From a virus, in the IMG/VR virus record IMGVR_UViG_3300021373_000005: 64,000 nt of DNA. The stretch is one strand, 5' to 3'. Made by a program: the position numbers and the translations under genes. The notes under the pieces are model-generated. The model made no database searches. It worked only from the letters and a program-made list of their open reading frames with translations, and had not been told where the DNA came from. Below, piece after piece: positions 1-30,600 of the stretch (the first letter of the stretch is position 1; each line of letters opens with the position of its first letter).

Positions 1-147
1 TTATTGCCTAAACAACTTGGATTACATGAATATATTGATACTGAACTTCAGTTTGATAAAGTATTCTTAAATCCTATTCAATCAATCCTAGATGCGGTTG
101 GTTGGTCAGCTGAACGAGTAAATACGATTGAAGATTTTTTCAGCTAA
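1..147 (+). CDS. 43: DNA polymerase gp43, C-terminal fragment (not in ORF track)
   Basis: Frame 1 reads LLPKQLGLHEYIDTELQFDKVFLNPIQSILDAVGWSAERVNTIEDFFS*, typical of the family-B T4-like polymerase C-terminus with its clamp-binding tail. Confidence 0.9.
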   Translation, partial: LLPKQLGLHEYIDTELQFDKVFLNPIQSILDAVGWSAERVNTIEDFFS

Positions 148-495: not shown

Positions 496-707
496 TAAAA
501 ATTTACGGTAAAGACAATTGTGCATACTGTAATATGGCAAAACAGCTATGCGAATCAAAAGGACTTGATTACGAATACTTAATGCTTGATGAAGATTACA
601 AGCAAGAAGAATTTTTTGAAACTTTTCCCGGTGCAAGAACCTTTCCTCAAATTCAAAAGGATGGAGAAAACATCGGTGGCTTTATGGAATTAAGAGAATT
701 ATTATGA
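492..707 (+). CDS. nrdC: glutaredoxin
   Basis: CAYC active site, TFPQI cis-Pro motif, IGGF motif. Confidence 0.92.
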   Translation: MIKIYGKDNCAYCNMAKQLCESKGLDYEYLMLDEDYKQEEFFETFPGARTFPQIQKDGENIGGFMELRELL

Positions 708-1123
708 GTAAAGATTGGGTTAAAGATATACAAGATATGCAAACCAAATATCAGACAAGAGATTGGGTTGCGAATAACGCAAATGACATTAACAAATTAA
801 AAGCGTTTTTGAGATTTAGAATTGATTTCTTGGAAGAGGAATTAACTGAAACTCGAAATGCGCAAAAAGTTATCGACTCCGAAGAAATCGTAGATGGTTT
901 AGTTGACCTTTGTGTAGTGGCAATCGGTACTCTTGATGCCTTCGGAGTCGACCCTTATAAAGCTTGGGACGCAGTTCTCGAAGCAAACATGGCAAAAGAA
1001 GTAGGTGTAAAGGAAGGAAGGCCAAATCCACTTGGTGTACCTGACTTAATGAAACCAGAAGGATGGACGGCTCCATCTCATGAAGGAAATCATGGAGTCC
1101 TACCAACATTAAAAGGAGAATAA
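704..1123 (+). CDS. MazG/PRA-PH-like all-alpha dNTP pyrophosphohydrolase
   Basis: EEELTE...EEIVDGLVDL..V..G....G.D......V..ANM.K motif pattern. Confidence 0.8.
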   Translation: MSKDWVKDIQDMQTKYQTRDWVANNANDINKLKAFLRFRIDFLEEELTETRNAQKVIDSEEIVDGLVDLCVVAIGTLDAFGVDPYKAWDAVLEANMAKEVGVKEGRPNPLGVPDLMKPEGWTAPSHEGNHGVLPTLKGE

Positions 1124-1795: not shown

Positions 1796-1863
1796 AATAC
1801 TTACATAAATTGATGAAATCCAGCAGAATACAAAATGTTTGGAGAGTAATCTTAAAATAACTA

Positions 1864-1892
1864 TTGACATTTCGTAGGAAGTATAGTATAAT
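1864..1892 (+). promoter_or_regulatory. sigma70-type promoter
   Basis: TTGACA-17 bp-TATAAT. Confidence 0.9.
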
Positions 1893-1922
1893 ATATCTAT
1901 AAATTGAAATAGACTTTATATT

Positions 1923-2429
1923 ATGCAAACAGAAATGTTTAACGAAGACCTGTCGGTAGATGGGTCTTTATTAAAAGAACATCTAAGTAAGATGATATTC
2001 ATCGGCACGTTAAAAATAGACGGAGAGCAGCTTGAGTATCAAAAATCACCAAACATTCAACGCAAAGAACTAAATGAAGATTTAGTATATTATATGGTGT
2101 GTAAAGGTCAATTAATGAAAATTGGCATAGCAGGCGGTATGATGGGTTGGAATGGTCGTGTAGGAATGTACCGAAAAGGTATTCTTAACGGCAAAGGTGA
2201 TGGAACAAATCACAGAATCTTTCGTATTATGAAAGAACGCGGATTAACCAAAGAACTTATTTACGTATTTGGAATCTATACACCTCCACAGGTTGTTGAT
2301 GTAATATGTCCTATGAATGGAAAAGTTATGCAGCAAGAAGTTCAAATACATCGTAATATAGAAAGGTCTTTAACCGCAGAGTTTTTATCAGAAGGTTATG
2401 AGTTACCTTTCAGTAAGCAATTAAATTAA
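1923..2429 (+). CDS. denA: GIY-YIG endonuclease, DenA (endonuclease II)-like
   Basis: LVYYMVCKGQLMKIG...RVGMYRKGI resembles T4 EndoII VIYAIAINDELVYIG...RINYYRTAI; C-terminal E...P..N. Confidence 0.65.
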   Translation: MQTEMFNEDLSVDGSLLKEHLSKMIFIGTLKIDGEQLEYQKSPNIQRKELNEDLVYYMVCKGQLMKIGIAGGMMGWNGRVGMYRKGILNGKGDGTNHRIFRIMKERGLTKELIYVFGIYTPPQVVDVICPMNGKVMQQEVQIHRNIERSLTAEFLSEGYELPFSKQLN

Positions 2430-2434
2430 AACTA

Positions 2435-2463
2435 TTGACATTGTACACAAAATAATTTATAAT
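2435..2463 (+). promoter_or_regulatory. sigma70-type promoter
   Basis: TTGACA-17 bp-TATAAT. Confidence 0.9.
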
Positions 2464-2489
2464 AGTACTTTACATTATGGAGATTGCCT

Positions 2490-2834
2490 ATGAGCAAACA
2501 AACAAACCCAGTTTCGGTTGATGTACTACAAGAGTGCGTTGACCTTCAGTTGAAAAAGTCTCGCGATTATCAGAATCCGAACTCAACTGTTCAACAAGCC
2601 GACTACTATCCTAACGGTATTACAACCATTCATGATATTATGCATGCAAAAATGCTTCGTATGAAATCTGTTATGGAAGCAATGCAGTCGGATGATTATG
2701 ATCCTAACTTTGAATCCCTTGAAGATTCAGCAAAAGATTTAATTAACTATTCAAGTTTCTTTGTCTCTTACTGTCGTAAAGGTATTAAAGGTCAAGATCC
2801 AACTAAAGATGTATTTAATAGGAGTACTAAATAA
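2490..2834 (+). CDS. nucleotide-modification-associated domain protein (DUF1599/Nmad1-like, MazG-like fold)
   Basis: KKSRDY...K..R...ESLEDSAKDLINY motif; GGAG RBS 7 nt before ATG 2490. Confidence 0.7.
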   Translation: MSKQTNPVSVDVLQECVDLQLKKSRDYQNPNSTVQQADYYPNGITTIHDIMHAKMLRMKSVMEAMQSDDYDPNFESLEDSAKDLINYSSFFVSYCRKGIKGQDPTKDVFNRSTK

Positions 2835-3088
2835 TGAGTAATGTGATATTACCGTCAAGTGACGAAGACAAGAAAAGAATCCGTGGCTGCATGGAAGAAA
2901 TGAGCAATTCATTTACAAGAATGGAATCAGAACGTGATTTTCAAAAAGAAGCAATTAATGCTTTGGCTGAAGAAGTACAGATTCCAAAATCAATCCTAAG
3001 GAAAACCGCAAGAGCTTTCCATAATCAAAATGTTTCAGATCTCGTTGCTGAAGTATCGGATATTGAAGCGTTAATGGAAACAATTTAA
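2834..3088 (+). CDS. dsbA: DsbA-like dsDNA-binding protein
   Basis: Helical pattern E....IPK..LRK.ARAFH.QN....VAE...IE.L.ETI parallels T4 DsbA. Confidence 0.7.
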   Translation: MSNVILPSSDEDKKRIRGCMEEMSNSFTRMESERDFQKEAINALAEEVQIPKSILRKTARAFHNQNVSDLVAEVSDIEALMETI

Positions 3089-3762
3089 TGGACAGAGTTT
3101 CTAATATTCAACAAACCATCATTGACAAATATCTCAGTGAAGATTTTGTCATTGACAAGACAGGTGTAAAAACTGTTGAAATTATTGGTGCAACATTTAT
3201 TGCTGATAGAGATTATGTCATTCGTAAACCTGCGTATGAATATATCCAACGCGAATTAGAATGGTATAAATCACAATCATTATATGTTGATGATATTCCT
3301 GGTGGTGCTCCACAAATTTGGAAAGATGTCTCATCTGACGAAGGTAAGATTAATTCAAATTATGGTTGGTGCATTTACTCTGAAGAGAATGGTAATCAAT
3401 ACAAACATGTTCAGCGTGAATTGAGAAACAATCCAAACTCTCGTAGAGCAACAATGATTTATAATCGACCAAGTATGCATTTGGATTACAACCGAGATGG
3501 TATGTCTGACTTTATGTGTACCTATGCAAATACTTTTTATATTCGCGATGGTAAACTTGACTCACATTACCTAATGCGTTCTAACGACGCAGTCTTTGGT
3601 TATAATAATGATTATGCTTGGGCAAGATATGTTCAGAATCAACTTGCTGAAGATCTTGGTATTGAAGTTGGTAATCTGATTTGGACAGCATCAAACTTCC
3701 ATGTATATGAAAGACATTTCAACTTTATTGAGGAATTAATTGATGGACTCAAAGTGGGATAA
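3088..3762 (+). CDS. 42: dCMP hydroxymethylase (thymidylate synthase family)
   Basis: Extensive match to T4 gp42: DKTGVKT.EIIGA.F.AD, EYIQRELEWYKS.SL, INSNYGW, DGMSDFMCT (catalytic Cys), MRSND.VFG..ND with the dCMP-specifying Asp. Confidence 0.93.
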   Translation: MDRVSNIQQTIIDKYLSEDFVIDKTGVKTVEIIGATFIADRDYVIRKPAYEYIQRELEWYKSQSLYVDDIPGGAPQIWKDVSSDEGKINSNYGWCIYSEENGNQYKHVQRELRNNPNSRRATMIYNRPSMHLDYNRDGMSDFMCTYANTFYIRDGKLDSHYLMRSNDAVFGYNNDYAWARYVQNQLAEDLGIEVGNLIWTASNFHVYERHFNFIEELIDGLKVG

Positions 3763-4195
3763 ACGCTTTATGCGTGTTGCTCAGGAAATATCTTCTTGGA
3801 GCAAAGATCCTTCAAAACAAATAGGAGCAGTGGCAGTTAACTCTGACCGTCGTATCCTAGCAACTGGGTATAATGGATTTCCAAAAGGAATTGAAGATAT
3901 ACCTGCTCGGTATGAAGATAGAACAATTAAATATGACTTGGTTGTTCATGCCGAGATGAACTGTATATACAATGCGACCTTTTCTGGCATTTCATTAAAG
4001 GATTCTACAATGTATGTATGGGGATTACCAGTTTGCCACGATTGTGCAAAAGGTATTATCCAAGTAGGCATAAATAGAATTGTCATTGGTATGTTGGATT
4101 CTCCACAAAAGTGGTTAGATTCATTTGAAAAATCAAGACGTATGTTTGACGAAGCAGATATTGCTATTGACTTTTTACATGATACTGTCAACTAA
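3743..4195 (+). CDS. cd: dCMP deaminase
   Basis: HAEMN and PVCHDC zinc motifs; GYNGFP. Confidence 0.92.
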   Translation: MDSKWDKRFMRVAQEISSWSKDPSKQIGAVAVNSDRRILATGYNGFPKGIEDIPARYEDRTIKYDLVVHAEMNCIYNATFSGISLKDSTMYVWGLPVCHDCAKGIIQVGINRIVIGMLDSPQKWLDSFEKSRRMFDEADIAIDFLHDTVN

Positions 4196-4199
4196 TCTA

Positions 4200-4228
4200 T
4201 TGACATTTATAGTAAACCATGTTATAAT
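4200..4228 (+). promoter_or_regulatory. sigma70-type promoter
   Basis: TTGACA-17 bp-TATAAT. Confidence 0.9.
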
Positions 4229-4256
4229 GGTAGTTAAATTTTAAGGATATTATATT

Positions 4257-4457
4257 ATGAAAGAAATTATTACAGATATGACTTATGGCATCGCGTTCGT
4301 TGCTATTATTTTCGGAACACTAGCAGGCGCTGTATTTTTAATGGAAGCAATCAATATGACTAAAGATAGTATTCGTATTGCTATTGCCGTTCCTTTATTC
4401 CTCTTCTTCTGTTATCACTTTGGTGGATTAACAAGATCCATTATCTTCAAGAAATAA
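4257..4457 (+). CDS. small two-TM membrane protein
   Basis: Two hydrophobic stretches in 66 aa. Confidence 0.6.
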   Translation: MKEIITDMTYGIAFVAIIFGTLAGAVFLMEAINMTKDSIRIAIAVPLFLFFCYHFGGLTRSIIFKK

Positions 4458-4459
4458 TT

Positions 4460-5494
4460 ATGGCATTACACAAAAGAATAGTACTTGACTTTGACGACAC
4501 ATTAGCGTTTACGTCAAACAGAGATTGGGAAAACGCAGAACCCAACATTGCTTTGATTGAAAAATGTAATGAATTATATAATGCAGGTTGGCAAGTAGAT
4601 ATTTTTACTGCTCGTGGTTCTATTTCTTGTAGGAGTAGAGTTGAAGCAGAAGAAAAGTATGGAGAACAAATACGGTCTTGGTTAGAAAAGCATCATGTAA
4701 AATATCATATGTTATCTTTTGATAAACCACTTGCTGCATATTATATTGATGATAAAGGTATTACACCTGAAGATTTTATATATGCTGACATTCGTGAATT
4801 AGAAGGTGGTCTATCAGGATCTGATATTTACACTGATGGTATGTTAGTACATAAGACCGCAAGTAATGCTCATGAAGTAGCAAAGTGGTACAAAGAAACA
4901 GGTTCAGCAGTTATGACTCCTGAAATCCATAGAGTGGTTGGTGATACAATTACAATGGATTACATTGACCACGATGAAGAGTTCTTCAAGCATTCTCCAT
5001 ATAAAGCATTAGCAATGATTCAAGAAGCACTTGATGAATTCGGTCATATACCTACTAAAAAGTTTTTAACATTTGATGACTATATCGCAAGGATTGTAGG
5101 TCATGTTCAGTTAGCTGATGTACCTGTGTTTAATGATATTGTTGAAAGAATGGCAAATATTAATTTAGAATACGGATATTGTCACGGAGATTTTGGTGTT
5201 AAGAACATGCTCTTTACAGAACATAACATGCACTTAATTGACCCTATCCCTAATGTATTTGGTTGTCGTGAACTTGACATAGCAAAATTTATCGCAAGCT
5301 TACTAATTAATCGTTATAACATTGAACTACAAGATCTTTCAATCAATACACTGTTAGCTTACAATCCTCAAATAGAAAGAAACACATTAATAATTTTAAC
5401 AGCAGCTGAGATTATTCGTGTATATAAGTATCACCCTGATAAAGATTTTATTATACAATGTGTTAACGACATTACGGAAGAATTATGTTTTTAG
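4460..5494 (+). CDS. HAD phosphatase (capsule EcbF/BcbF-like) fused to an APH/kinase-like phosphotransferase
   Basis: N-terminal LDFDDTL, FTARG, KP...YYIDDK (HAD motifs I-IV); C-terminal HGDFGVKNML and LIDP (kinase catalytic and metal loops). Confidence 0.8.
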   Translation: MALHKRIVLDFDDTLAFTSNRDWENAEPNIALIEKCNELYNAGWQVDIFTARGSISCRSRVEAEEKYGEQIRSWLEKHHVKYHMLSFDKPLAAYYIDDKGITPEDFIYADIRELEGGLSGSDIYTDGMLVHKTASNAHEVAKWYKETGSAVMTPEIHRVVGDTITMDYIDHDEEFFKHSPYKALAMIQEALDEFGHIPTKKFLTFDDYIARIVGHVQLADVPVFNDIVERMANINLEYGYCHGDFGVKNMLFTEHNMHLIDPIPNVFGCRELDIAKFIASLLINRYNIELQDLSINTLLAYNPQIERNTLIILTAAEIIRVYKYHPDKDFIIQCVNDITEELCF

Positions 5495-5919
5495 ATAGAA
5501 AGAAATTACCTCAAGATTTTAAAGTAGGATTTACATGTTCTACTTTTGATTTGTTTCACGCAGGTCATATTGTAATGTTACAAGAAGCAAAGACATTGTG
5601 TGATTATTTGATTGTTGGATTATTAATTGACCCAACAGTGGATCGTCCTGAGTCAAAGAACAAGCCTATTCAAACTCCTTTTGAGAGATACATACAGGTT
5701 TCATCTTGTAAGTATGTTGACGAAGTTATTCCTTTTACAACAGAACAAGAAATCGTTGATATGATCTTGACGATTAATCCTGACATAAGAATTGTTGGTG
5801 AAGAATATAAAGACCAAGAACATACAGGTAAAGGCTTATGTCCTGTTCATTATAATAGACGAAGACACTCATTCAGTTCAACAGAGCTCAGACAACGTGT
5901 AGTCAATTCTAATAAATAA
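5485..5919 (+). CDS. TagD/RfaE-II-like nucleotidyl(cytidylyl)transferase
   Basis: TFDLFHAGH (HxGH), LIVGL, ER...V..CKYVDEV, SSTELR. Confidence 0.88.
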   Translation: MFLDRKKLPQDFKVGFTCSTFDLFHAGHIVMLQEAKTLCDYLIVGLLIDPTVDRPESKNKPIQTPFERYIQVSSCKYVDEVIPFTTEQEIVDMILTINPDIRIVGEEYKDQEHTGKGLCPVHYNRRRHSFSSTELRQRVVNSNK

Positions 5920-5944
5920 AAATACAGTCGGATAATTATACATT

Positions 5945-7204
5945 ATGAAAAACATTGGATTCGCAAAGATTGGCAAGTCAGTCAAGTTTAAACGCAATAG
6001 GTTCTCACCTATCGGTGGAGACAACGAGCCATCTTCAGTTCTAATTGCACTCGCAAATAATAACCCAGACAAAACATTTTATATTATCGGTCGTTCTGAC
6101 TTCAGCACTCTTTCTGAATCTGAAGCTTTGGATTTATTTCCGTATGATAATGTAATTGATATTTGGAAAGGTATTAAGAATGATGAAACCGATAGCTTTT
6201 ATCGTCATGTGATTAACTATTTTAATCAGAGAGGATTTAAGTTAGATTATACTGTTATGATGGTAGGTCAAGTTGGTACTGTTACGATCCCAGGTAAGAT
6301 TACTCAAGTGAAACATTTAAAAGAAGGTATCACTGACGGTAAACCTGCTTCTGTGATTGATATGACAAAGAACTATACTTCTCCTATTGCGATTTGGTTA
6401 AATGAAGAAAAGCCTGACTACGTTGAGATTGTAAATGATCCACGATATGTAATGAATCAATCAAGAGATATCTTTCATTTACCAAATAAGTCGTTAGGTC
6501 AATATGATTATAAGTATAAAGCAAGTACAATAGAATCATATGAAAACCAAGAACGATCCGACAAATTTGTAGAATCTGTATATGCAGGAATGGAAACAAA
6601 CTTTTGTGTTCGTTACGACTATACAGAAGAATTTAATACAACAAGAAACATTCCTTTTATGGTCATATTGAATGAAGGTAAACCTTCAAGATATGGATTG
6701 ATGAAGGAATGGGTATTGAACGATTTTGAAGATGTTGAAGTTTATGGAAAATGGGAACACCCAGATACAGAAACTGATGCTAGGTTCAAAGGTTCTATTC
6801 ATCTTGACGATGTAATTCGTAAATTGGATAATGTTAAATTTACGTTTATTATTCCAATTGAAAAAGGTTGGGTAACAGCAAAGTATATTGAAATGATACA
6901 CGCAGGAGTTGTTCCTTTCTTACATCCAACATATGATGAACAGAAACATTTACCTATACCTGACTTCTTACGACCAAAAACTCCAACTGAGTTTAAAGAA
7001 AGAATGGATAGATTACTAAATAATGAAGAAGAGTACTTATCAGTAGTTAAAGGATTGCGTAAACTTATATGCAAGCCTGAGTTATATGATGGCACCTTCT
7101 TAAACAATAAAATTATGACAGCAATTGATGAAGATTATATCGCTACTGATATATCACAATACGAAAAGAAAACTGCTGCTACACTTGAGGACTTTTTTGG
7201 ATGA
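5945..7204 (+). CDS. GT-B glycosyltransferase, T4 beta-glucosyltransferase-like
   Basis: VNDPRY aligns with BGT FTDIRL (catalytic Asp); the VYGK...FKGSI...VTAKYIEM...P..EF.ER...L C-terminal lobe parallels BGT. Confidence 0.7.
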   Translation: MKNIGFAKIGKSVKFKRNRFSPIGGDNEPSSVLIALANNNPDKTFYIIGRSDFSTLSESEALDLFPYDNVIDIWKGIKNDETDSFYRHVINYFNQRGFKLDYTVMMVGQVGTVTIPGKITQVKHLKEGITDGKPASVIDMTKNYTSPIAIWLNEEKPDYVEIVNDPRYVMNQSRDIFHLPNKSLGQYDYKYKASTIESYENQERSDKFVESVYAGMETNFCVRYDYTEEFNTTRNIPFMVILNEGKPSRYGLMKEWVLNDFEDVEVYGKWEHPDTETDARFKGSIHLDDVIRKLDNVKFTFIIPIEKGWVTAKYIEMIHAGVVPFLHPTYDEQKHLPIPDFLRPKTPTEFKERMDRLLNNEEEYLSVVKGLRKLICKPELYDGTFLNNKIMTAIDEDYIATDISQYEKKTAATLEDFFG

Positions 7205-8421
7205 AACAAGATATAACATGGGCACCACTTATTCCGCTTATTGGTGGACAAATGCTAGGAGCGGAAAAAGCTTTCGGTAAACCACCCGAAGCAATTTATT
7301 CTTATAGTGGATTTGAAGCTAACGATGGACATTATGTCAATTATCAACAAGTAACGAAAGGACGTGATATTCCTTATGTATTACTTGATTCTGAAAATCC
7401 AAATATTAAACAAGTGGATGTAGTATCAGGTACTCCACCTTGCGCTGCATTATCACAATTAAATACTGGATTAACTGAAGAATCAAAAGGTGCTAAATGT
7501 GCAAAGAACGAATTTATGTATCAGGTCTTTCAAGATGGTATTGATGTTTTAGGAGCAAAGGTTGTTATTGTTGAGAACGCTCCTGCACTATATACAAACA
7601 AAGGTCGTCCAGTCGCAAATAGACTGTATGAAATTTGTGCTGAGAGAGGTTATTCTTTATCTCTGTATAAAACCTCAACGAGATATCATGGAGTTCCTCA
7701 GGGACGAGATAGAACGTTTGCGATTGGTTGGAAGTCAAGTACTTCTCCTGTATTAAACTGGTATAACCGTGATCGTAAATCATTTGCCGAATATCTTAAA
7801 GAAATTCCTGATGATGCATTACAACACGATTTGATTATTAATAAGAATGTACCTGAAGAACCTTACTATACATTTATTAAAACAAAAACAAACCGTGATG
7901 TAAGAGAGATTATGTTAGAAGAAGATGTAAAGACAACTCTCAATTATGTTAACAAAAAAGGTTGGATGAAAGAAGCAAACGAATGGTTCCATAAGACAGG
8001 ACATGAAAAAGGTATTAAGTATTCTGACCACGCAATTAAAAAGTATGCTGATGGATTAGGTGTATGGGATGGTTCAGTACATGTCTTTGGTGATTATATG
8101 AATGCAGTCATTGGTCGTAATATGGTTGATACGATTCACCCAACTGAAGATAGGTCATTAACTATTCGTGAAGCTCTACATATGATGGGATTCCCAGAAG
8201 ACTTTGAACTATTAGGTGGATTGCCTAAAGTAAATCATATTGCTCAAAATGTTCCTGTACCTACATCAAGAGATTTACATTCTGAGATTGGTAAATTTTT
8301 AAGAGGCGAACTAACATTATCTGATACCACTTATTTAAGACAAAACAATCATAAACAATTAATGGAGTTTGACCCTAACGGAAAAGATACAACTCCATCT
8401 CTTGAAGAATTTATGTCATAA
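7201..8421 (+). CDS. DNA cytosine-C5 methyltransferase-like protein with degenerate motif I
   Basis: GTPPC (IV), ENAP (VI), PQGRDR (VIII), RSLTIREALHMMGFP (IX), AQNVP (X); motif I reads IPLIGG instead of FxGxGG. Confidence 0.82.
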   Translation: MKQDITWAPLIPLIGGQMLGAEKAFGKPPEAIYSYSGFEANDGHYVNYQQVTKGRDIPYVLLDSENPNIKQVDVVSGTPPCAALSQLNTGLTEESKGAKCAKNEFMYQVFQDGIDVLGAKVVIVENAPALYTNKGRPVANRLYEICAERGYSLSLYKTSTRYHGVPQGRDRTFAIGWKSSTSPVLNWYNRDRKSFAEYLKEIPDDALQHDLIINKNVPEEPYYTFIKTKTNRDVREIMLEEDVKTTLNYVNKKGWMKEANEWFHKTGHEKGIKYSDHAIKKYADGLGVWDGSVHVFGDYMNAVIGRNMVDTIHPTEDRSLTIREALHMMGFPEDFELLGGLPKVNHIAQNVPVPTSRDLHSEIGKFLRGELTLSDTTYLRQNNHKQLMEFDPNGKDTTPSLEEFMS

Positions 8422-8425
8422 ACTA

Positions 8426-8454
8426 TTGACATTCAATAAAAAATAGAGTATAAT
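8426..8454 (+). promoter_or_regulatory. sigma70-type promoter
   Basis: TTGACA-17 bp-TATAAT. Confidence 0.9.
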
Positions 8455-8461
8455 ATACACC

Positions 8462-9100
8462 ATGAGAAATGATTTAATAATAGACTTTGAAACAATGGGT
8501 CAAGACGTACATAATTGTGCTGTCATTGATATGTCAGTAATGGTATTTCAATGGGACAAGTTTACGTCTGACGATCCATACAATTTAGGCGATGTATTCA
8601 AGGTGAAGAAATTCAAATTGAATGTATCGGAGCAAGTCAAGAATTACAATTGGGTAGTTGATAAAGGTACATTGGACTTTTGGTCGCAGCAGGATTCTGA
8701 AGTAAGAAAGAATATTGCTCCTAAGAGTTCTGATTTATCTGTTGCTGATTTTGTAAAACAATTCACAGATTTTTTAATTGATAGCCCAAAGATTGATTTT
8801 TGGTGGTCAAGGTCTAATTCATTTGACCCAGTTATTCTGGAAAGATTATTTAAATCTCAGAATAAAGTAAATCATTTACAATCACACTTACAACATTGGA
8901 AAGTTAGAGATACAAGAACTTTTATTGATGCAAAGTTTGATTTTGGTTTGAAGAAGAATGGATTCCCTCCTTGTGCTAATGAAGATAAATGGGATTCTGT
9001 ATTTAAAGCACATGATTCAGCTTGGGATATATTGGCAGACGTAATGAGATTACAATCAATCACAAGAGCTGAAAATGATATGGAGCAAATCACAGTATGA
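8462..9100 (+). CDS. dexA: DexA 3'-5' exonuclease
   Basis: IIDFETMG, SFDPVIL, RDTRT, AHDSAWD..AD (DEDDh) match T4 DexA. Confidence 0.88.
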   Translation: MRNDLIIDFETMGQDVHNCAVIDMSVMVFQWDKFTSDDPYNLGDVFKVKKFKLNVSEQVKNYNWVVDKGTLDFWSQQDSEVRKNIAPKSSDLSVADFVKQFTDFLIDSPKIDFWWSRSNSFDPVILERLFKSQNKVNHLQSHLQHWKVRDTRTFIDAKFDFGLKKNGFPPCANEDKWDSVFKAHDSAWDILADVMRLQSITRAENDMEQITV

Positions 9101-9966
9101 AATTAGAAGTAAAAACAGAAGAACTACAAAAACAACGACTCTTTATTGGAACACCTATGTATGGTGGATCTTGTGCAGGATTATATACAAAGTCAACAAA
9201 TGATTTAAGTATGTTATGTTCATCGCATAAAATTCCAATGAAATACTATTTCTTATTTAACGAAAGTTTAGTACAAAGAGCTAGGAATTATATTGTTGAT
9301 GAATTCCTTCGTTCTGACTGTACTCATTTATTGTTTATAGATTCAGATATTGGATTTGACCCAAGAGATGCATTAGCATTACTTGCATTACAAATATCAG
9401 ACCCAGAGAAGTATGATATTGTATGCGGTCCATATCCAAAGAAAACAATTGCATGGGAAAAGGTTTCTGTAGCAGCACAGCAAGGTGTTGGAAAGGAAAA
9501 TCCTTTTGAACTTGAACAATATACATCAGATTTTGTCTTTAACCCTGTTGCGGATATAAGACAATTTAAACTCTCCGACCCTGTTGAAGTGGCAGAAGGT
9601 GGAACTGGGTTTATGTTAATTACAAGAGATGCTCTCGAAAGATATCGAGACACATATCCAGAGTTATCATATAAACCTGACCATGTTCGTACTGACAAGT
9701 TTGACGGTACTCGTGAGATTCATGCTTTCTTTGATTGTGTCATTGACCCAGAGTCAAAGAGGTACTTATCCGAGGATTACTTTTTCTGTAAGATGGCTCG
9801 TAAAGCAGGTCTTTCAGTTTGGATGTGTCCTTGGATGAAAATCAACCATGTTGGTTCTTATATCTTTAAGGGTGACATGGGTGCTCTAGGTCAACTAGGA
9901 GTTACTGCTACTGCAGATTCTAAATCTAATAAGAAAGCTTATAATCCTGTTGACAAGTCCAAGTAA
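9097..9966 (+). CDS. GT-A (GT2-like) glycosyltransferase
   Basis: IGTPMYGG, ESLVQRARN, LFIDSD (DxD), GTGFMLI, LSEDYFFC. Confidence 0.82.
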   Translation: MKLEVKTEELQKQRLFIGTPMYGGSCAGLYTKSTNDLSMLCSSHKIPMKYYFLFNESLVQRARNYIVDEFLRSDCTHLLFIDSDIGFDPRDALALLALQISDPEKYDIVCGPYPKKTIAWEKVSVAAQQGVGKENPFELEQYTSDFVFNPVADIRQFKLSDPVEVAEGGTGFMLITRDALERYRDTYPELSYKPDHVRTDKFDGTREIHAFFDCVIDPESKRYLSEDYFFCKMARKAGLSVWMCPWMKINHVGSYIFKGDMGALGQLGVTATADSKSNKKAYNPVDKSK

Positions 9967-9978
9967 ATGGTATATAAT
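9950..9978 (+). promoter_or_regulatory. sigma70-type promoter
   Basis: TTGACA-17 bp-TATAAT overlapping the end of the GT-A gene. Confidence 0.88.
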
Positions 9979-10013
9979 ATACCACAAATAATATCAATGG
10001 AGAAACTTATATT

Positions 10014-10676
10014 ATGAAATTTTCTAACGAAACTTTGACGGTCTTAAAAAGCTTTACTCAAATCAACAAGTCAATCTTGATGAAAGAAGGTAATGTTCTT
10101 AAGACTATCACTCCGGAGAAGACATTAATTGCTATCGCAGACATTCCTGATGAAATTCCATCAGATGCATGTGTATACGATCTTTCAAGATTTTTATCAA
10201 TTTTGTCTTTATATAATGACCCAGATGTAGAGTTTTTTGATAAATACTTTATTATCTCGGAAGGTAAGCGTAGAACGAAATATGTCTATGCAGATTTATC
10301 AATGATACATACACCACCTGAAAAGGATATTACTATTCCTTCAGCAGATGTTGTAGTTAATGTATCTAATGATGAATTAACTTCAGTGCTCAAAGCAGCA
10401 GGGGTATTACAATTTTCAGAGATTGCGTTTGTAGGCGAAGGCGGCAAATGCTATCTGAAAGCAATCGACAGTACGAACGAAGGCGCAGATGACTTTGGCG
10501 TTGAAATCGGGGATACTGCCGACGAGTTTAAAATTATTATTAAAACTGATAATTTAAAACTCATGCCTTTGGATTATGAGGTTACGCTTTGTTCAAAAGG
10601 TATCTCAGAATTTAAAGGTCAAGGTGTCACATATTATGTGGCTATAGATTCAAAGTCGACTTATAATAAAAGGTGA
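10014..10676 (+). CDS. 45: sliding clamp
   Basis: MKFS.ETL.VLK.F..IN.SI, YDL..FL, YYVA.D; located before the clamp loader. Confidence 0.93.
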   Translation: MKFSNETLTVLKSFTQINKSILMKEGNVLKTITPEKTLIAIADIPDEIPSDACVYDLSRFLSILSLYNDPDVEFFDKYFIISEGKRRTKYVYADLSMIHTPPEKDITIPSADVVVNVSNDELTSVLKAAGVLQFSEIAFVGEGGKCYLKAIDSTNEGADDFGVEIGDTADEFKIIIKTDNLKLMPLDYEVTLCSKGISEFKGQGVTYYVAIDSKSTYNKR

Positions 10677-10680
10677 AATT

Positions 10681-10968
10681 ATGAATGAACCAGTACAAGG
10701 TAACTTTGGTCAACAACAAGGCCAAGAACAAGAAGTGGTTATCAATCTTGGAGACCTATCAACTGTGTTGCAGATTATTGACGTAGTCTCTCAGCGTGGT
10801 GGATTCCAAGGACAGGAACTTGCTGGAATAGGAATGCTAAGAAATAAAATCGAAGCATTTTTAAGACAGAAAGGACCTCAGCAAGACGCAAGTCTTGGTG
10901 AACAGGATGCCAATGTTGATACATCAGTAACTGAAGGTGCTCCTTTAGCTGATAAAGTTGTTGAGTAA
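10681..10968 (+). CDS. conserved hypothetical protein
   Basis: IIDVVSQRGGFQG.EL..IG.LR.K core; lies between genes 45 and 44. Confidence 0.7.
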   Translation: MNEPVQGNFGQQQGQEQEVVINLGDLSTVLQIIDVVSQRGGFQGQELAGIGMLRNKIEAFLRQKGPQQDASLGEQDANVDTSVTEGAPLADKVVE

Positions 10969-13078: not shown

Positions 13079-13165
13079 ATTTAGTAAGGTGCCGTAAGGG
13101 CTTTACAAAAGGTGATGGGTAATAACCATCGAATAATAATATCTAGCTTATTAAAGGAGATAAAA

Positions 13166-13615
13166 ATGACTGGATTAAATATAAATCAACTACACCCTTT
13201 TGCTGTAGGATTCGATAGAGTCTTCGACAGATTGGTGGAGTTCCCTCAAGTACATCAATCACAAGGCTTCCCGCCTTACAATATCAGAAGAGACGAAGAC
13301 AAGTTCTATATTGACCTTGCTTTGGCAGGACTTGATATTGATGATGTAGAAATCGAAGTAAAAGAAGATGTATTAACCATTCGTTCCACATGGGATGAAG
13401 CAGGTGATTACTTCAATGGCGGCGGTGAGTATGTTCACCGTGGTATTTCTTTCAAGAAGTTCAAAAGAAGCTTTACTCTTGCGGACGATATTGAAGTAAT
13501 TGACGCCAACTTCGCAAACGGTCTTTTAACTGTCTCATTGGAAAGAATTATTCCTGAGGCAAAGAAAGCACGTAAAATTAAGATTAAAACTGAGAAAGAA
13601 CTTCTCAAAGGTTAA
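13166..13615 (+). CDS. small heat-shock protein Hsp20 (IbpA-like)
   Basis: GFDR.F, FPPYNI, LAG, RGIS...F.RSF.LA, NGLL; AAGGAG RBS before ATG 13166. Confidence 0.93.
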   Translation: MTGLNINQLHPFAVGFDRVFDRLVEFPQVHQSQGFPPYNIRRDEDKFYIDLALAGLDIDDVEIEVKEDVLTIRSTWDEAGDYFNGGGEYVHRGISFKKFKRSFTLADDIEVIDANFANGLLTVSLERIIPEAKKARKIKIKTEKELLKG

Positions 13616-13628
13616 TCTATTTTAATCC

Positions 13629-13649
13629 GGGAGGTCGCAATGGCCTCCC
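13629..13649 (+). other. intergenic RNA hairpin without U tract
   Basis: GGGAGGTC-GCAAT-GGCCTCCC stem in the prx leader. Confidence 0.5.
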
Positions 13650-13669
13650 AACTAAAAGGAAACTATATT

Positions 13670-14179
13670 ATGAAACAAGTACCTAACGTTACTTTCAAAG
13701 TAAGAAGCAGAAATGTAGACACAGGTGATTTTGAATGGCAACATCCAACAACCAATGATTATTTTGGTGGTAAGAGAGTTGTAATGTTCTCATTACCTGG
13801 CGCATTTACACCAACCTGTTCTAATAATCAAGTACCAGGATTCGATGTCCTATATGACCAAATTATTGAAGCAGGTATTGATGAAGTATATTGCGTATCC
13901 TGTAATGATACATTCGTTATGAATGCATGGGCTGAAGATCTTAGAGTCAAGAATGTTAAATTCATTCCTGATGGATCTTGTGAATTTACAGCAGGTATGG
14001 AAATGTTAGTCGCAAAGGATAATCTTGGTTTCGGTAAAAGATCTTGGAGATATGCTGCTGTCGTAGAAGACGGTGTTGTTGAAAAGATGTTTGTTGAACC
14101 TGGATTTGAAGATGACTGTCCAACAGATCCTTATGGTGAATCTTCGCCTGAAACTGTTCTTGCTTATTTAAAACAATAA
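13670..14179 (+). CDS. peroxiredoxin (Prx5 type)
   Basis: SLPGAFTPTCS..QVPG, SCND.FVM.AW, RSWRYA. Confidence 0.93.
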   Translation: MKQVPNVTFKVRSRNVDTGDFEWQHPTTNDYFGGKRVVMFSLPGAFTPTCSNNQVPGFDVLYDQIIEAGIDEVYCVSCNDTFVMNAWAEDLRVKNVKFIPDGSCEFTAGMEMLVAKDNLGFGKRSWRYAAVVEDGVVEKMFVEPGFEDDCPTDPYGESSPETVLAYLKQ

Positions 14180-27675: not shown

Positions 27676-30600
27676 ATGCCTCAGGGTGAAATAGAAAAAA
27701 ATATATCGCTTTTTATAAAGCGCCAATTCCCTGCCATTTATCGGGAAGATGGACCTGAGCTTGTTCAATTAGTAGAAGATTACTATAAGTGGTCGGAAAC
27801 TCAAGAGAATCAACATATCTATCAGCAAAGAAGATTCTTTGAAACAAAAGATATTGATACTACATTAGAGAATATGATTATATTCTTTAAGAAAAAGTTT
27901 CTTGCTGACCTACCACTTAAAACGGATATCATCAAGTTTATTATTAAAAATATTCTTGACTTATATCGTTCAAAAGGTACTGCTCGTGGTATCGAATTAT
28001 TCTTTGCGATATTTTATCAAGAGTTTGATATTGAAATCATATATCCTTCAGAAAGAATGGCAAAGATTTCTGATTCTGATTGGAAGCAAGGTGTATACTT
28101 ACAAATGTTTCCAAATCAAAACAAATTTACATCAAAGAGTGGTAAAGAATATACTTACTTTGATTTATTATCTCGTAACATTACAGGTGCCTTCTCTGGT
28201 GCAAAAGCATCAGTCCGTTCAGTTAACTTCTTTATCTTAAATGGAATTAAAACTGCGGTTGTATATCTCGATGGAATTAAAGGTAACTTTGATAAGTTTG
28301 AAGATATCACAACAAAAATAAGTGGTGAAGTTGTTTCGTTTGGTAAAGTAAATGGTTCCTTATCAGGTTTCATTATTGATACTTTTGATAAAGGAATGAC
28401 AGGAAGGTCAGTTGGTGAAATCTTTGACGTAAAACAAAAAGACGGTAATTCAGGTAAAGCAATCGTTACTGCTATTTCCGATGAAACAACAGGAAGAATT
28501 TCATATGATGTTCTTGACGGTGGTTATGGTTATACAATTGATAATACACGCTTATTAGTTTCTAATCAATCTCTCATAACAAATAATGAAGATTTAAATT
28601 ATGTCATAGGCGAAACCGTTGAAGACCAAGGTGGTAACGAAGGTATTGTCATTGGACAAAATGCAAGTTCTGTTGGATTCAGAATGAATGCAGGTAATGC
28701 ATTTAACGCAGGAAGTGTTATTACAACAACTCGTGGTTCAAATGAATATGTAGTTACAGTTTCTTCACAAGGTAATGAAGTTACGCAGAAAAATGAATCG
28801 TCTCCTGGTCCGTTATATCCTGACACTTCTGATACTGATGATGTTATTGTATCAAGTTTGGCAGATACTTCTGTCGCTTCTGTTATTACTGATTTAATTC
28901 AACCTCATTTAGGAACAACATTAAATATAGCTGATTACGAAGCCGTAGCTCCATTCTCAGGAACCGCATCTCCAGTTAATTTATCAACTCCTTTAGAAGA
29001 TGCATTCGCAATACAAGATTTAACAATAGGTACTATATCTGGGTTTAATAATATTAATCCAGGTTCTGAATATAAAAACGATGTATTTGCGATAGCACAA
29101 GACAGTGTGTTCAAAAACTTTGAACGCAAAAATCAAATACTTCAATTTGCCGATGCAGGCGTCGCAGGAAACTTTTCAATAGGCGATCGTATTGTTGGTA
29201 TAGGTACTGGAATTACTGCTGTTGTTAAAAGAACAAATTTAGAAGCTGGAAGTATTACGGTTACTCCATTTGCTTATTACGGTTTCAGTGGAGAAGATAT
29301 ACGTTTTGAATCTTCACCTGAGCCTGACTTTGAAGTTATCGCAGTTGAAACCGATTATGAGAATAGTCTATCATTTGGTGATAACGCAATCATTAATCCA
29401 GAAACTGAATTCGCAATAGGAAGAGTTAAAGAAGTTAATATTTTATCTTCAGGATTTGGATATGTTGATTATGGAACTGAGCCAGAAATATTTGCTGAAG
29501 GTAAAGGTGAATTAAGAGATGCAAATAATGACATTGTTGCTACAGGTTGGATTGAAGCAACACAACAAGGTGTCACATCAGGTTATTGGTCAATTGAAAA
29601 TTCTCATTTAAGTGGATATAGAACAGAGCCAGGTCAATCTTCAGATAATACATTAGAATATTATGATTCAGGAGCAAGAATACAAGATAGTGACTTCTAT
29701 CAAGAGTATTCATATCAAATTAAATCTACATTACCTTTACAAGAATACCAAACATTATTAAGAGAAAATGTTCACCTAGCAGGTTCAAAATTGTTTGGTG
29801 ACTTTATCTTTAAGGCATATGTTGGTTCAGGAATGAAACAACGATTCTTGAGATTGTTTAATGACCAAGGTACTGGATCACCATTTGATTTAGCTGACAT
29901 TGAAAGCTTAAGAGCTTCAGTTACAAACTATACTTCTGATAGTACTTATGTATCAGCTGACCATATACCGGGCGGTTCAGGTGGTTTAACATTAAGTACA
30001 GCTTCAGCAACAGATTTAACAATTACAAAGAATTGGAGTCAAGGCTTCCATGATTACGAAGTAACAGTACAAATGCCTACAGTAGGAACGGCTCCTTACC
30101 CAGTTGCTATTTTATTACACGGTAATGGTGGAACAGGTGCTGGTTCAGTTTCGCAATTTGCTGATAACTTAACAGGACATATATTAATTGGAGTTGATGG
30201 ATTTGCGAATTCATGGAACATTGCGAATGAAACTTCAAAAGGTCCTGACATTGAAATGTTAGAAGAACTTATTGAAATGTTAAAAATATATAATAACGTT
30301 GATGAGAATAAGATTCGTATTGTAGGTACAAGTAATGGTGGTGCTCTTGCATTAAGGGCAGCAGTTGAAATTGGTGATACTGCAGTTGATACTATTGTCT
30401 GTATGATATCACAAGCACACAACGAACAATATAGAAACGGTTATTTCTATTACCCATCTAATGAAGAAATAACTGGAGGGGCAACTCCAAATCTTGGTTA
30501 TGATTATATCAAGAACCCAATACCTCAAAGAAGGCTTGTTCTAATGAATGGTCTTCAAGATAATGTAGTCCCATACGCAGGTGGAACGGCGTTAGGAGTG

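What the first reader, a model, noticed from the sequence alone, without database searches (positions are those of the whole stretch)
2490..9966. hmC hypermodification cluster that appears to build its own NDP-sugar/polyol donor
Seen in sequence: a gp42 dCMP hydroxymethylase (with the dCMP-specifying Asp) and dCMP deaminase are followed by a HAD-phosphatase/kinase fusion, an HxGH nucleotidyltransferase and a BGT-like GT-B enzyme. An Nmad1-like protein, a C5-MTase-like protein, DexA and a GT-A enzyme lie alongside. Established knowledge: T4 glucosylates hmC using host UDP-glucose and needs no donor genes. The kinase -> HAD phosphatase -> HxGH nucleotidyltransferase series is the logic of the ADP-heptose pathway, and TagD-type enzymes make CDP-polyols. 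Inference: this phage makes a non-glucose activated donor and transfers it to hmC, giving a probably uncharacterised modified base.
Basis: partly seen in the sequence, partly recalled or inferred. Interest (0 to 1): 0.85.

Follow-up and report, generated by a model that had tools for sequence, protein, structure and literature searches.

The report
Phage hmC sugar-donor and transferase operon
An uncultured marine T4-like phage most likely makes hydroxymethylcytosine, builds its own activated sugar and attaches it to its DNA; this is an untested variant of a pathway recently solved in RB69-type phages.

Summary
A T4 gp42-type dCMP hydroxymethylase and a dCMP deaminase form one early transcription unit. 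The next unit holds a small ORF, a phosphatase-kinase fusion, an HxGH nucleotidyltransferase, a GT-B glycosyltransferase and a C5-methyltransferase-like gene. The GT-B's best structural match is T4 beta-glucosyltransferase.

Comparative evidence supports a self-made donor that goes onto DNA:
- The phosphatase-kinase + nucleotidyltransferase pair sits beside a dCMP-type thymidylate-synthase homologue in marine T4-like contigs and in two unrelated gut-type phages.
- In one marine lineage the pair sits next to a non-homologous, AGT-like DNA glycosyltransferase instead.
- Only the two DNA-acting enzymes carry the DNA polymerase's C-terminal clamp-type tail.

The idea that a phage builds its own donor is no longer new. 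RB69, DLP3 and HY126 make UDP-arabinose with a homologous phosphatase and a kinase of the same fold (PMC13326640). This locus differs in four ways:
- the base is hmC-type, not 5-hydroxycytosine;
- the phosphatase and kinase are fused;
- a non-orthologous nucleotidyltransferase does the activation step;
- the transferase is BGT-like.

The sugar and the nucleotide carrier remain unknown. DexA and the "GT-A" gene form a separate unit and are not specific to hmC phages. The Nmad1 call is weak. This scan has noted the same module in other genomes.

The parts
1..147 (+). 3' end of the DNA polymerase (gp43) gene; the protein ends ...NTIEDFFS
   Evidence: Translation. It serves as the reference for the C-terminal tail shared with the GT-B and the C5-MTase-like protein.
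704..1123 (+). MazG/PRA-PH-type NTP pyrophosphohydrolase; a possible dCTPase analogue (context, role inferred)
   Evidence: PF01503 E 9e-9; phrog_671 E 2.4e-21. No gp56 orthologue was found in the window.
2435..2463 (+). Perfect TTGACA-N17-TATAAT promoter opening unit 1
   Evidence: about 0.02 such sites are expected by chance in this region.
2484..2834 (+). 116-aa helical protein, weakly DUF1599/Nmad1- and MazG-like; a possible nucleotide-pool enzyme
   Evidence: phrog_18404 E 5e-13; DUF1599 E 0.026, below the cut-off. Kept upstream of gp42 in relatives.
2834..3088 (+). DsbA-like late-transcription regulator homologue (bystander)
   Evidence: phrog_639 E 4e-13; PF11126 E 4.6e-4.
3088..3762 (+). 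gp42-type dCMP hydroxymethylase
   Evidence: E 8.6e-74 to T4 gp42. It reads MRSND, with Asp at the ThyA-169 position, where the RB69 5-hydroxy-dCMP synthase reads MRSQN. It is only 26% identical to RB69 gp48.
3740..4195 (+). dCMP deaminase
4200..4228 (+). Perfect consensus promoter (with a TG extension) opening unit 2, the donor/transferase operon
4257..4457 (+). 66-aa ORF of unknown function, first gene of unit 2
   Evidence: Kept in most type-1 relatives at 45-96% identity. No family hit.
4460..5494 (+). HAD phosphatase (about residues 1-110) fused to an APH/choline-kinase-fold sugar kinase (about residues 115-344)
   Evidence: Invariant catalytic residues in 36 homologues: D10, D12, D13, T14, K89, D97, D98, K132, H242, G243, D244, N249, D261.
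5485..5919 (+). HxGH-class nucleotidyltransferase; overlaps the preceding gene by 10 nt
   Evidence: PF01467 E 3e-15. rfaE_dom_II 76.8 bits and TagD 52.9 bits, both far below their cut-offs. The HAGH and SST..R motifs are visible in the translation.
5945..7204 (+). GT-B glycosyltransferase, BGT-like, with the C-terminal tail ...TLEDFFG
   Evidence: The tail is kept in 79 of 80 homologues, the last ending ...GLEGFF.
7201..8421 (+). C5-cytosine-methyltransferase-like enzyme with the tail ...SLEEFMS; its start overlaps the GT-B stop
   Evidence: PF00145, 79 bits. Invariant PPC, ENA, QxRxR, RE and QN motifs. The tail is kept in the 65 homologues examined.
8426..8454 (+). Perfect consensus promoter opening unit 3
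8462..9100 (+). DexA-type 3'-5' exonuclease (neighbour; probably not part of the modification pathway)
   Evidence: PF16473 E 1.4e-18; phrog_255 E 6e-32.
9097..9966 (+). phrog_1574 protein, possibly GT-A fold; a gene kept widely in T4-like phages and not hmC-specific
   Evidence: phrog_1574 E 1e-58. Found in 63 phage records, including Synechococcus phages, Cr30, phiM12 and Pelagibacter phages. GT-A is only a lead.
10014..10676 (+). gp45 sliding clamp, the inferred docking partner of the tails
   Evidence: PF09116 E 6e-14.

Best explanation
This is a replication-coupled cytosine hypermodification system.

Steps shown by homology:
- gp42 makes 5-hydroxymethyl-dCMP, which is built into the DNA as hmC.
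- The second early operon encodes a phosphatase, a kinase, a nucleotidyltransferase and a glycosyltransferase.

Inferred mechanism:
1. The APH-fold kinase phosphorylates the anomeric position of a host sugar phosphate. A pentose 5-phosphate is the leading guess.
2. The fused AfhF-like HAD domain removes the distal phosphate, leaving a sugar 1-phosphate.
3. The HxGH nucleotidyltransferase couples that to an NTP (probably ATP or CTP rather than UTP), giving an NDP-sugar that the host does not supply.
4. The BGT-like GT-B, held at the gp45 clamp by a polymerase-like C-terminal tail, transfers the sugar to the hydroxymethyl group of hmC in newly made DNA.

The co-transcribed, clamp-tailed C5-MTase-like enzyme acts on the same DNA. 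It most simply methylates cytosines that escaped replacement.
For: Base:
- The gp42 identity and its diagnostic residues.
- The D169N rule that separates hydroxymethylases from 5-hydroxy-dCMP synthases (PMC13326640).

Donor module:
- The HAD domain is 33% identical to RB69 gp51 and to PDB 9iqw. 9iqw aligns with the same residues as RB69 gp51, so it is probably the HY126 AfhF-type phosphatase.
- The kinase has the APH/choline-kinase fold (Z about 18). The matches include methylthioribose kinase, a furanose anomeric kinase (Z about 16). The paper reports the same fold class for the RB69/DLP3 kinase domain.
- Catalytic residues are invariant across homologues.
- The nucleotidyltransferase has the HxGH motifs.

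Transferase:
- T4 BGT stands about 3 Z units above the other GT-B enzymes. T4 AGT and the HY126 DNA glycosyltransferase are also among the matches.

Context:
- The order gp42 - deaminase - fusion - nucleotidyltransferase - GT-B - C5MT is kept in about 60 viral contigs.
- Sister contigs keep the same GT-B family but carry the RB69-type donor set instead: a stand-alone HAD plus an NTP_transferase-kinase fusion. This was seen upstream of the GT-B in all 18 sister contigs (L066-L084) that extend upstream of it, with the domain architecture confirmed for L084; L070 starts at the GT-B.
- The cultured Pseudoalteromonas phage XG4 and Enterococcus phage Planchet also carry that RB69-type set.
- The row fusion - nucleotidyltransferase - GT - dCMP-type TS homologue recurs in Agathobaculum phage AB434P2 and in gut contig MT837767.
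- In the L088/L089 lineage the same donor pair sits beside a non-homologous AGT-like DNA glycosyltransferase (PF11440, 27.8 bits against a cut-off of 25).

DNA as the acceptor:
- Of the 132 ORFs of at least 60 aa in the window, only the GT-B and the C5MT end in a [LIV]x[DE]F[FMLY] tail like gp43's TIEDFFS.
- The tail is kept in 79 of 80 GT-B and all 65 C5MT homologues examined. It also occurs on the unrelated AGT-like enzyme. It is absent from the donor enzymes, DexA and the phrog_1574 protein.

Expression:
- A perfect promoter at 4200 precedes the unit, and the gene junctions overlap.
Against: - There is no chemistry: neither the sugar, the nucleotide, the acceptor nor the product was observed.
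- No sugar-phosphate isomerase was found in the 64-kb window or in any related locus, so the substrate is a guess.
- The kinase resembles the RB69 kinase only at motif level (E 0.1).
- The nucleotidyltransferase class is best known for phospho-alcohol activation (TagD, ECT, CCT). Its best single PDB match among bacterial enzymes is TagD.
- A conserved, apparently active C5-MTase is hard to explain if hmC fully replaces C.
- No gp56 dCTPase orthologue was found in the window.
- Clamp binding by the tails is inferred from likeness to gp43.
Confidence: 0.62

Rival explanations
1. The donor is an NDP-alcohol (CDP-glycerol, CDP-ribitol, CDP-ethanolamine or CDP-choline type). The GT-B-fold enzyme would then act like TagF and put a phospho-alcohol, not a sugar, on hmC.
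For: The nucleotidyltransferase's best PDB matches are ethanolamine-phosphate cytidylyltransferase (E 5.6e-23 over two domains) and TagD (E 1.1e-14). The top Foldseek hit of the kinase domain is a choline/ethanolamine-kinase family protein. From my own knowledge, TagF-type phosphotransferases also have a GT-B fold.
Against: - A fused, catalytically intact HAD phosphatase has no role in a kinase-then-cytidylyltransferase route. It is homologous to the sugar-bisphosphate phosphatase of the arabinose pathway.
- In sister phages the same GT-B family is paired with a sugar-1-phosphate-type NTP_transferase.
- The profile score is higher for heptose-1-phosphate adenylyltransferase (76.8 bits) than for TagD (52.9 bits).
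- The best structural matches of the GT-B are DNA and small-molecule glycosyltransferases.
Confidence: 0.12
2. The GT-B simply glucosylates hmC from host UDP-glucose, as T4 BGT does. The donor module would then feed something else: a second sugar added by another transferase, or glycosylation of virion proteins or the host envelope.
For: BGT is the closest structure. Sister lineages carry extra transferase-like ORFs inside the operon: a 305-aa ORF in 27 loci, with an Atlas lead to GT-A/GT8. Phage virion glycosylation cassettes exist (note e1-3259679, not checked).
Against: - The donor pair is adjacent to, and co-transcribed with, a DNA-type glycosyltransferase in three unrelated settings.
- The pair stays when the transferase family is swapped.
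- In AB434P2 no second glycosyltransferase was recognised among the genes beside the module; gene 8 (361 aa) has no family hit.
- No structural genes lie nearby.
Confidence: 0.14
3. The cluster is just the known arabinose pathway in another guise. The product would be NDP-arabinofuranose, and the DNA base arabinosyl-hmC or even arabinosyl-5-hydroxycytosine.
For: The HAD domain is homologous to the RB69 gp51/AfhF type. The kinase has the same fold. Sister contigs carry the canonical NTP_transferase-kinase fusion. A Gram-negative host could supply arabinose 5-phosphate through KdsD (my own knowledge).
Against: - The TS homologue is the hydroxymethylase type, not the D169N type, which excludes 5-hydroxycytosine by the published rule.
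- No arabinose-5-phosphate isomerase was found here, whereas RB69 and DLP3 keep one in their cluster.
- The same module occurs in a phage of a Gram-positive anaerobe, which should lack KdsD (the KdsD point is inference).
- The nucleotidyltransferase is non-orthologous.
- There is no detectable homology between this GT-B and RB69 gp47 (hhalign probability 0.1%).
Confidence: 0.2

Closest known systems
Afh / RB69-DLP3-HY126 arabinosyl-5-hydroxycytosine pathway (PMC13326640; He et al. as cited there)
   Same: - The phage encodes its own NDP-sugar route next to a thymidylate-synthase homologue and DNA glycosyltransferases.
- The HAD phosphatase is homologous (33% identity to RB69 gp51).
- The kinase has the APH fold.
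- The logic is kinase, then phosphatase, then nucleotidyltransferase.
   Different: - The base-forming enzyme is gp42-type (Asp, not Asn, at ThyA position 169).
- The phosphatase is fused to the kinase, rather than the kinase to the nucleotidyltransferase.
- The nucleotidyltransferase is HxGH class, not MurU/NTP_transferase class.
- No arabinose-5-phosphate isomerase was found.
- The transferase is BGT-like and unrelated in sequence to RB69 gp46:47.
- A C5-MTase-like gene is co-transcribed.
T4 hmC glucosylation (gp42, alpha- and beta-glucosyltransferases)
   Same: - gp42 is about 57% identical.
- dCMP deaminase is present.
- The transferase's closest structure is T4 BGT (Z 22.8).
- The setting is an early-gene, replication-linked region.
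   Different: - T4 uses host UDP-glucose and has no donor genes.
- The GT-B here has no sequence-level membership in the BGT family, is 70 residues longer and carries a clamp-type tail.
- No gp56 orthologue was seen in the window.
ADP-heptose pathway (GmhA, HldE, GmhB)
   Same: The formal order is the same: sugar phosphate, then 1,x-bisphosphate, then 1-phosphate, then NDP-sugar. The nucleotidyltransferase scores best against the rfaE domain II profile.
   Different: The kinase is APH-fold, not PfkB. The HAD is EcbF/BcbF-type, not GmhB. No isomerase was found. The rfaE-II score is 76.8 bits against a cut-off of 181.5.
TagD / CCT / ECT cytidylyltransferases
   Same: The HxGH and SST..R motifs are present, and pairwise E-values reach down to 1e-14.
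   Different: The score is far below the TagD equivalog cut-off (52.9 against 165.4). The genomic partners point to a sugar route, not a polyol route.

Membership tests
T4 gp42 dCMP hydroxymethylase (thymidylate synthase superfamily) | Full-length homology to the experimentally defined enzyme | tested here: met
   E 8.6e-74 to T4 gp42 over residues 17-215.
T4 gp42 dCMP hydroxymethylase (thymidylate synthase superfamily) | Catalytic Cys, and Asp at the ThyA N177 position (cytosine specificity) | tested here: met
   FMCT and NNDYAW align with T4 C148 and D179.
T4 gp42 dCMP hydroxymethylase (thymidylate synthase superfamily) | Asp, not Asn, at the ThyA D169 position (separates hydroxymethylases from 5-hydroxy-dCMP synthases) | tested here: met
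   The window reads MRSND; RB69 gp48 reads MRSQN. The rule comes from PMC13326640.
Afh/RB69-type NDP-arabinose donor pathway | AfhF-like HAD phosphatase | tested here: met
   33% identity to RB69 gp51 (E 5e-15); 9iqw E 2.2e-10.
Afh/RB69-type NDP-arabinose donor pathway | Bifunctional NTP_transferase (MurU-like) + kinase protein (AfhE) | tested here: not met
   The kinase is fused to the HAD domain instead. The nucleotidyltransferase is PF01467, not PF00483. The AfhE-type fusion is present in sister contigs.
Afh/RB69-type NDP-arabinose donor pathway | Arabinose-5-phosphate isomerase in the cluster | tested here: not met
   tblastn with RB69 gp55 found nothing in the window or in the 80 viral-contig loci then held. 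This is BLAST-level sensitivity only, and the rest of the genome was not available.
Afh/RB69-type NDP-arabinose donor pathway | 5-hydroxy-dCMP synthase (D169N) | tested here: not met
T4 beta-glucosyltransferase (BGT) | GT-B fold closest to BGT | tested here: met
   Z 22.8, rmsd 3.4 A, 312 residues aligned; the next family scores 19.4.
T4 beta-glucosyltransferase (BGT) | Sequence-family membership | tested here: not met
   No Pfam, NCBIfam, PHROG or PDB sequence hit. Structure-based identity is 14%.
T4 beta-glucosyltransferase (BGT) | UDP-glucose donor and hmC-DNA acceptor | not testable with these tools
   Needs an enzyme assay.
HldE domain II / TagD equivalogs | Score above the curated equivalog cut-off | tested here: not met
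   rfaE_dom_II 76.8 against 181.5; TagD 52.9 against 165.4. Superfamily membership is met (TIGR00125, 57.4 against 27.7).
C5 cytosine DNA methyltransferase | PF00145 above the cut-off, with catalytic motifs IV (PC), VI (ENV-like), VIII (QxRxR), IX and X | tested here: met
   79.4 bits against 22. Invariant P79, P80, C81, E125, N126, Q167, R169, R171, R323, E324, Q349, N350 in 22 homologues.
C5 cytosine DNA methyltransferase | Canonical FxGxG AdoMet-binding motif I | tested here: inconclusive
   The N-terminus reads PLIPLIGGQ. Only the GG is canonical, yet it is invariant.
Nmad1 (DUF1599) | Pfam score above the gathering cut-off | tested here: not met
   15.3 bits against 25; E 0.026.
GT-A glycosyltransferase (9097-9966) | Recognisable GT-A family or fold | tested here: inconclusive
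   GT21 at 18.6 bits against 21.7. There is an Atlas lead to a cluster in which 32% of members carry Anp1. A DSD motif is present. No fold was predicted.

The most novel reading that the evidence does not exclude
A large group of uncultured marine T4-like phages carries a DNA base not yet described: hmC bearing a sugar (possibly a pentofuranose such as ribose) delivered from an ADP- or CDP-linked donor. The base would be installed at the replication fork by modification enzymes that have each independently acquired the polymerase's clamp-binding tail. The conserved, clamp-tailed C5-MTase-like enzyme would not be an ordinary methylase. It would act on hmC itself, or convert leftover cytosines, so that every cytosine in the genome ends up modified.
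Probability: 0.3. Interest if true: 0.78.

Novelty: new variant of a known kind. Interest (0 to 1): 0.6.

Why it matters
Phage DNA hypermodification decides which restriction, CRISPR and glycosylase defences work against a phage. It is also a source of enzymes for labelling hmC.

This locus shows that the "make your own sugar donor" strategy, proven so far only for arabinosyl-5-hydroxycytosine, also exists on an hmC chassis. Here it uses a differently wired donor module that is exchanged as a cassette between marine myoviruses and gut phages of Firmicutes. The GT-B family alone gave 252 confirmed hits in viral contigs.

The clamp-type tails suggest a simple and testable way to couple modification to replication. 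If the product is confirmed, it would add a new natural DNA base and a new NDP-sugar route.

Tried and rejected
- Nucleotide search of phage records found nothing. The window's own assembly is not held, so the rest of the genome could not be searched for an isomerase, gp1 or gp56.
- tblastn with RB69 gp55 (isomerase), gp50, gp52, gp53, gp45 and gp46/47 against the window gave only the HAD match.
- RB69 gp56 found no orthologue.
- hhalign of the GT-B family against RB69 gp47 and against the L088 AGT-like protein showed no relation.
- A scan of bacterial and archaeal genomes for the phosphatase-kinase fusion gave only two MAG contigs. Both carry gp42, gp45 and gp44 and are therefore phage contigs binned by mistake. 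No bacterial capsule or LPS context was available to hint at the sugar.
- Literature searches for an hmC phage with this enzyme set, for Enterococcus-phage hmC glycosylation and for marine T4-like hmC clusters found nothing specific.
- Complex prediction of the gp45 trimer with the GT-B tail was asked for six times.
- I first considered DexA and the 9097-9966 protein to be parts of the system. I rejected this on promoter structure and on the wide distribution of the 9097-9966 family.
- I rejected the ADP-heptose and TagD readings as family assignments because of the scores and the kinase fold.

Full report
**What is there**

The window comes from an uncultured marine T4-like myovirus.
- gp43's end, gp45, gp44, gp62 and RegA flank the region.
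- The nearest cultured relatives by gp44 are Methylophilales phage Melnitz and cyanomyoviruses, at about 55% identity.
- Identical proteins lie on metagenomic contigs of up to about 190 kb.

Five perfect TTGACA-N17-TATAAT promoters stand in the intergenic gaps of 1800-10800, where about 0.02 are expected by chance. They divide the island into four units:
- unit 1: 2484-4195 (helical MazG/Nmad1-like protein, DsbA-like protein, gp42, dCMP deaminase);
- unit 2: 4257-8421 (small ORF, phosphatase-kinase fusion, nucleotidyltransferase, GT-B, C5-MTase-like);
- unit 3: 8462-9966 (DexA-like exonuclease, phrog_1574 protein);
- the clamp genes.

Inside unit 2 the fusion and nucleotidyltransferase genes overlap by 10 nt, and the GT-B and C5MT genes by 4 nt.

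**The base**

The TS homologue is about 57% identical to T4 dCMP hydroxymethylase (E 8.6e-74). It is 26% identical to RB69 gp48.

A 2026 paper showed that RB69-type enzymes make 5-hydroxy-dCMP, and that Asn at the ThyA-169 position marks them (PMC13326640). The window protein has Asp there (MRSND, against MRSQN in RB69). It also has Asp at the N177 position. hmC is therefore the expected base.

**The donor module**

- *Phosphatase domain.* The N-terminal 110 residues of 4460-5494 are an EcbF/BcbF-type HAD phosphatase. They are homologous to RB69 gp51 and to PDB 9iqw, the phosphatase step of the phage arabinose pathway.
- *Kinase domain.* The rest of the protein folds as an APH/choline-kinase-type kinase (pLDDT 89; Z about 18). 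Methylthioribose kinase is among the matches. The paper reports this fold class for the RB69/DLP3 kinase domain.
- *Active sites.* The catalytic residues of both domains are invariant in 36 homologues.
- *Nucleotidyltransferase.* 5485-5919 is an HxGH-class enzyme. It is closest by profile to heptose-1-phosphate adenylyltransferase and by pairwise score to TagD and ECT, far below every equivalog cut-off. Neither its substrate nor its nucleotide can be read from the sequence.
- *Isomerase.* No sugar-phosphate isomerase was found in the window or in related loci.

**The transferase**

5945-7204 has no sequence family. Its model is confident (pLDDT 91). T4 BGT matches it best (Z 22.8). BshA-type GT4 enzymes (Z 19.4), T4 AGT (Z 18.3) and the HY126 DNA glycosyltransferase (Z 17.9) follow.

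**Comparative evidence**

A scan of viral contigs gave 252 relatives of the GT-B, of which I examined 80.
- *Type 1.* About 60 contigs have the window's arrangement. Of these, 27 carry an extra 305-aa ORF between the fusion and the nucleotidyltransferase (Atlas lead: GT-A/GT8-like). Ten carry an extra 264-aa ORF.
- *Type 2.* The more distant contigs (L066-L084; GT-B 62-69% identical) have a stand-alone HAD plus a roughly 500-aa protein instead. In L084 that protein is an NTP_transferase-kinase fusion, which is the RB69/AfhE architecture. All 18 of these 19 contigs that extend upstream of the GT-B have it; L070 starts at the GT-B. The cultured Pseudoalteromonas phage XG4 and Enterococcus phage Planchet have this arrangement too, each next to a dCMP-type TS homologue with Asp at position 169.
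- *Gut-type phages.* The type-1 module (fusion, HxGH enzyme, a GT of the same family, dCMP-type TS homologue) recurs in one row in Agathobaculum phage AB434P2 and in gut contig MT837767.
- *Transferase swap.* In a further marine lineage (L088, L089) the same donor pair is kept but the GT-B is absent. A non-homologous 474-aa protein matching the T4 alpha-glucosyltransferase family lies directly upstream of the fusion.

A donor pair that stays beside gp42-type genes while the adjacent DNA glycosyltransferase is exchanged is good evidence that the donor feeds DNA glycosylation.

**Clamp-type tails**

- gp43 ends TIEDFFS, the GT-B ends TLEDFFG and the C5MT ends SLEEFMS.
- Of the 132 ORFs of at least 60 aa in the window, only these two end this way.
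- The tail is kept in 79 of 80 GT-B homologues (the other ends ...GLEGFF) and in all 65 C5MT homologues examined. It is absent from the fusion, the nucleotidyltransferase, DexA and the phrog_1574 protein.
- The unrelated AGT-like transferase of L088 ends GATLEGFF, and its C5MT ends STLEAFL.
- RB69 gp43 ends SLFDMFDF. From my own knowledge this is the peptide crystallised on the RB69 clamp (Shamoo and Steitz 1999).

**What does not belong**

- The phrog_1574 protein occurs in 63 phage records, mostly Synechococcus phages, plus Cr30, phiM12-type and Pelagibacter phages. It has its own promoter together with DexA.
- The Nmad1 call is sub-threshold. The protein is MazG-like, and a short MazG-like ORF also lies beside gp42 in L088. 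A dCTPase-like role is therefore possible but untested.

**Open problem**

The C5-MTase-like enzyme keeps all its catalytic motifs. It is linked to the transferase in every marine lineage. It should have no substrate in fully hmC-substituted DNA. There are three possibilities:
- replacement of C by hmC is incomplete;
- the enzyme acts on host DNA;
- the enzyme does something other than methylate cytosine.

**Verdict**

The principle of a phage-made NDP-sugar for cytosine glycosylation is already published. This locus is a new variant of it, with an hmC base, fused phosphatase and kinase domains, a non-orthologous nucleotidyltransferase, a BGT-like transferase with a clamp-type tail, and a partner C5MT.

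The scan has noted the same module in other genomes. The first-reader notes are e1-5725816, e1-5725830, e1-5857285 and e1-5857294. Follow-ups e1-128797 and e1-5377599 reached similar readings on related clusters. I did not check those.

Noticed in passing
window 152, 1864, 2435, 4200, 8426, 9950, 13041 (+); 63567, 62499 (-): There are nine perfect TTGACA-N17-TATAAT promoters in 64 kb, all at gene-unit boundaries where I checked. The early-promoter consensus is unusually strict for a marine T4-like phage.
   Followed up: partly
window 7201-8421 and its homologues (A4): A C5-MTase-like enzyme with intact catalytic motifs is co-transcribed with the hmC glycosyltransferase and carries a clamp-type tail. 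Its substrate in an hmC phage is unexplained. Its closest cultured homologues are in Pseudoalteromonas phage XG4 (49%) and S-TIM5-type cyanophages (31%).
   Followed up: partly
L088:3797-4569 (marine T4-like contig filed under a Rhodobacteraceae MAG): A 137-aa ferredoxin (Fer4 + DUF3470) and a 120-aa UDG-superfamily fragment lie between the dCMP deaminase and the AGT-like transferase. L088 and L089 are phage contigs binned into bacterial MAGs.
   Followed up: no
L024:7632-8549 (27 loci) and L021:3334-4128 (10 loci): Lineage-specific extra ORFs sit inside the modification island. The 305-aa ORF has an Atlas lead to GT-A/GT8-like transferases, which suggests a second sugar in those phages. The 264-aa ORF has no hit at all.
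   Followed up: partly
L003 (Enterococcus phage Planchet, 52-57 kb of the record) and L002 (Pseudoalteromonas phage vB_Psh_XG4, 0.1-6.6 kb): These cultured phages carry a dCMP-type TS homologue with Asp at position 169, a HAD, an AfhE-like fusion, the same GT-B family and a further GT. I found no report on their DNA, so they are practical test cases.
   Followed up: partly
window 13112-14179: Hsp20 and peroxiredoxin (Redoxin) genes follow regA. These are auxiliary genes typical of marine T4-like phages.
   Followed up: no
L004 (RB69 27708-28094) and many phage records: The AfhF-type HAD phosphatase is widely annotated as 'phosphoheptose isomerase' in phage records (and in phrog_1238). This looks like a propagated misannotation.
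   Followed up: no
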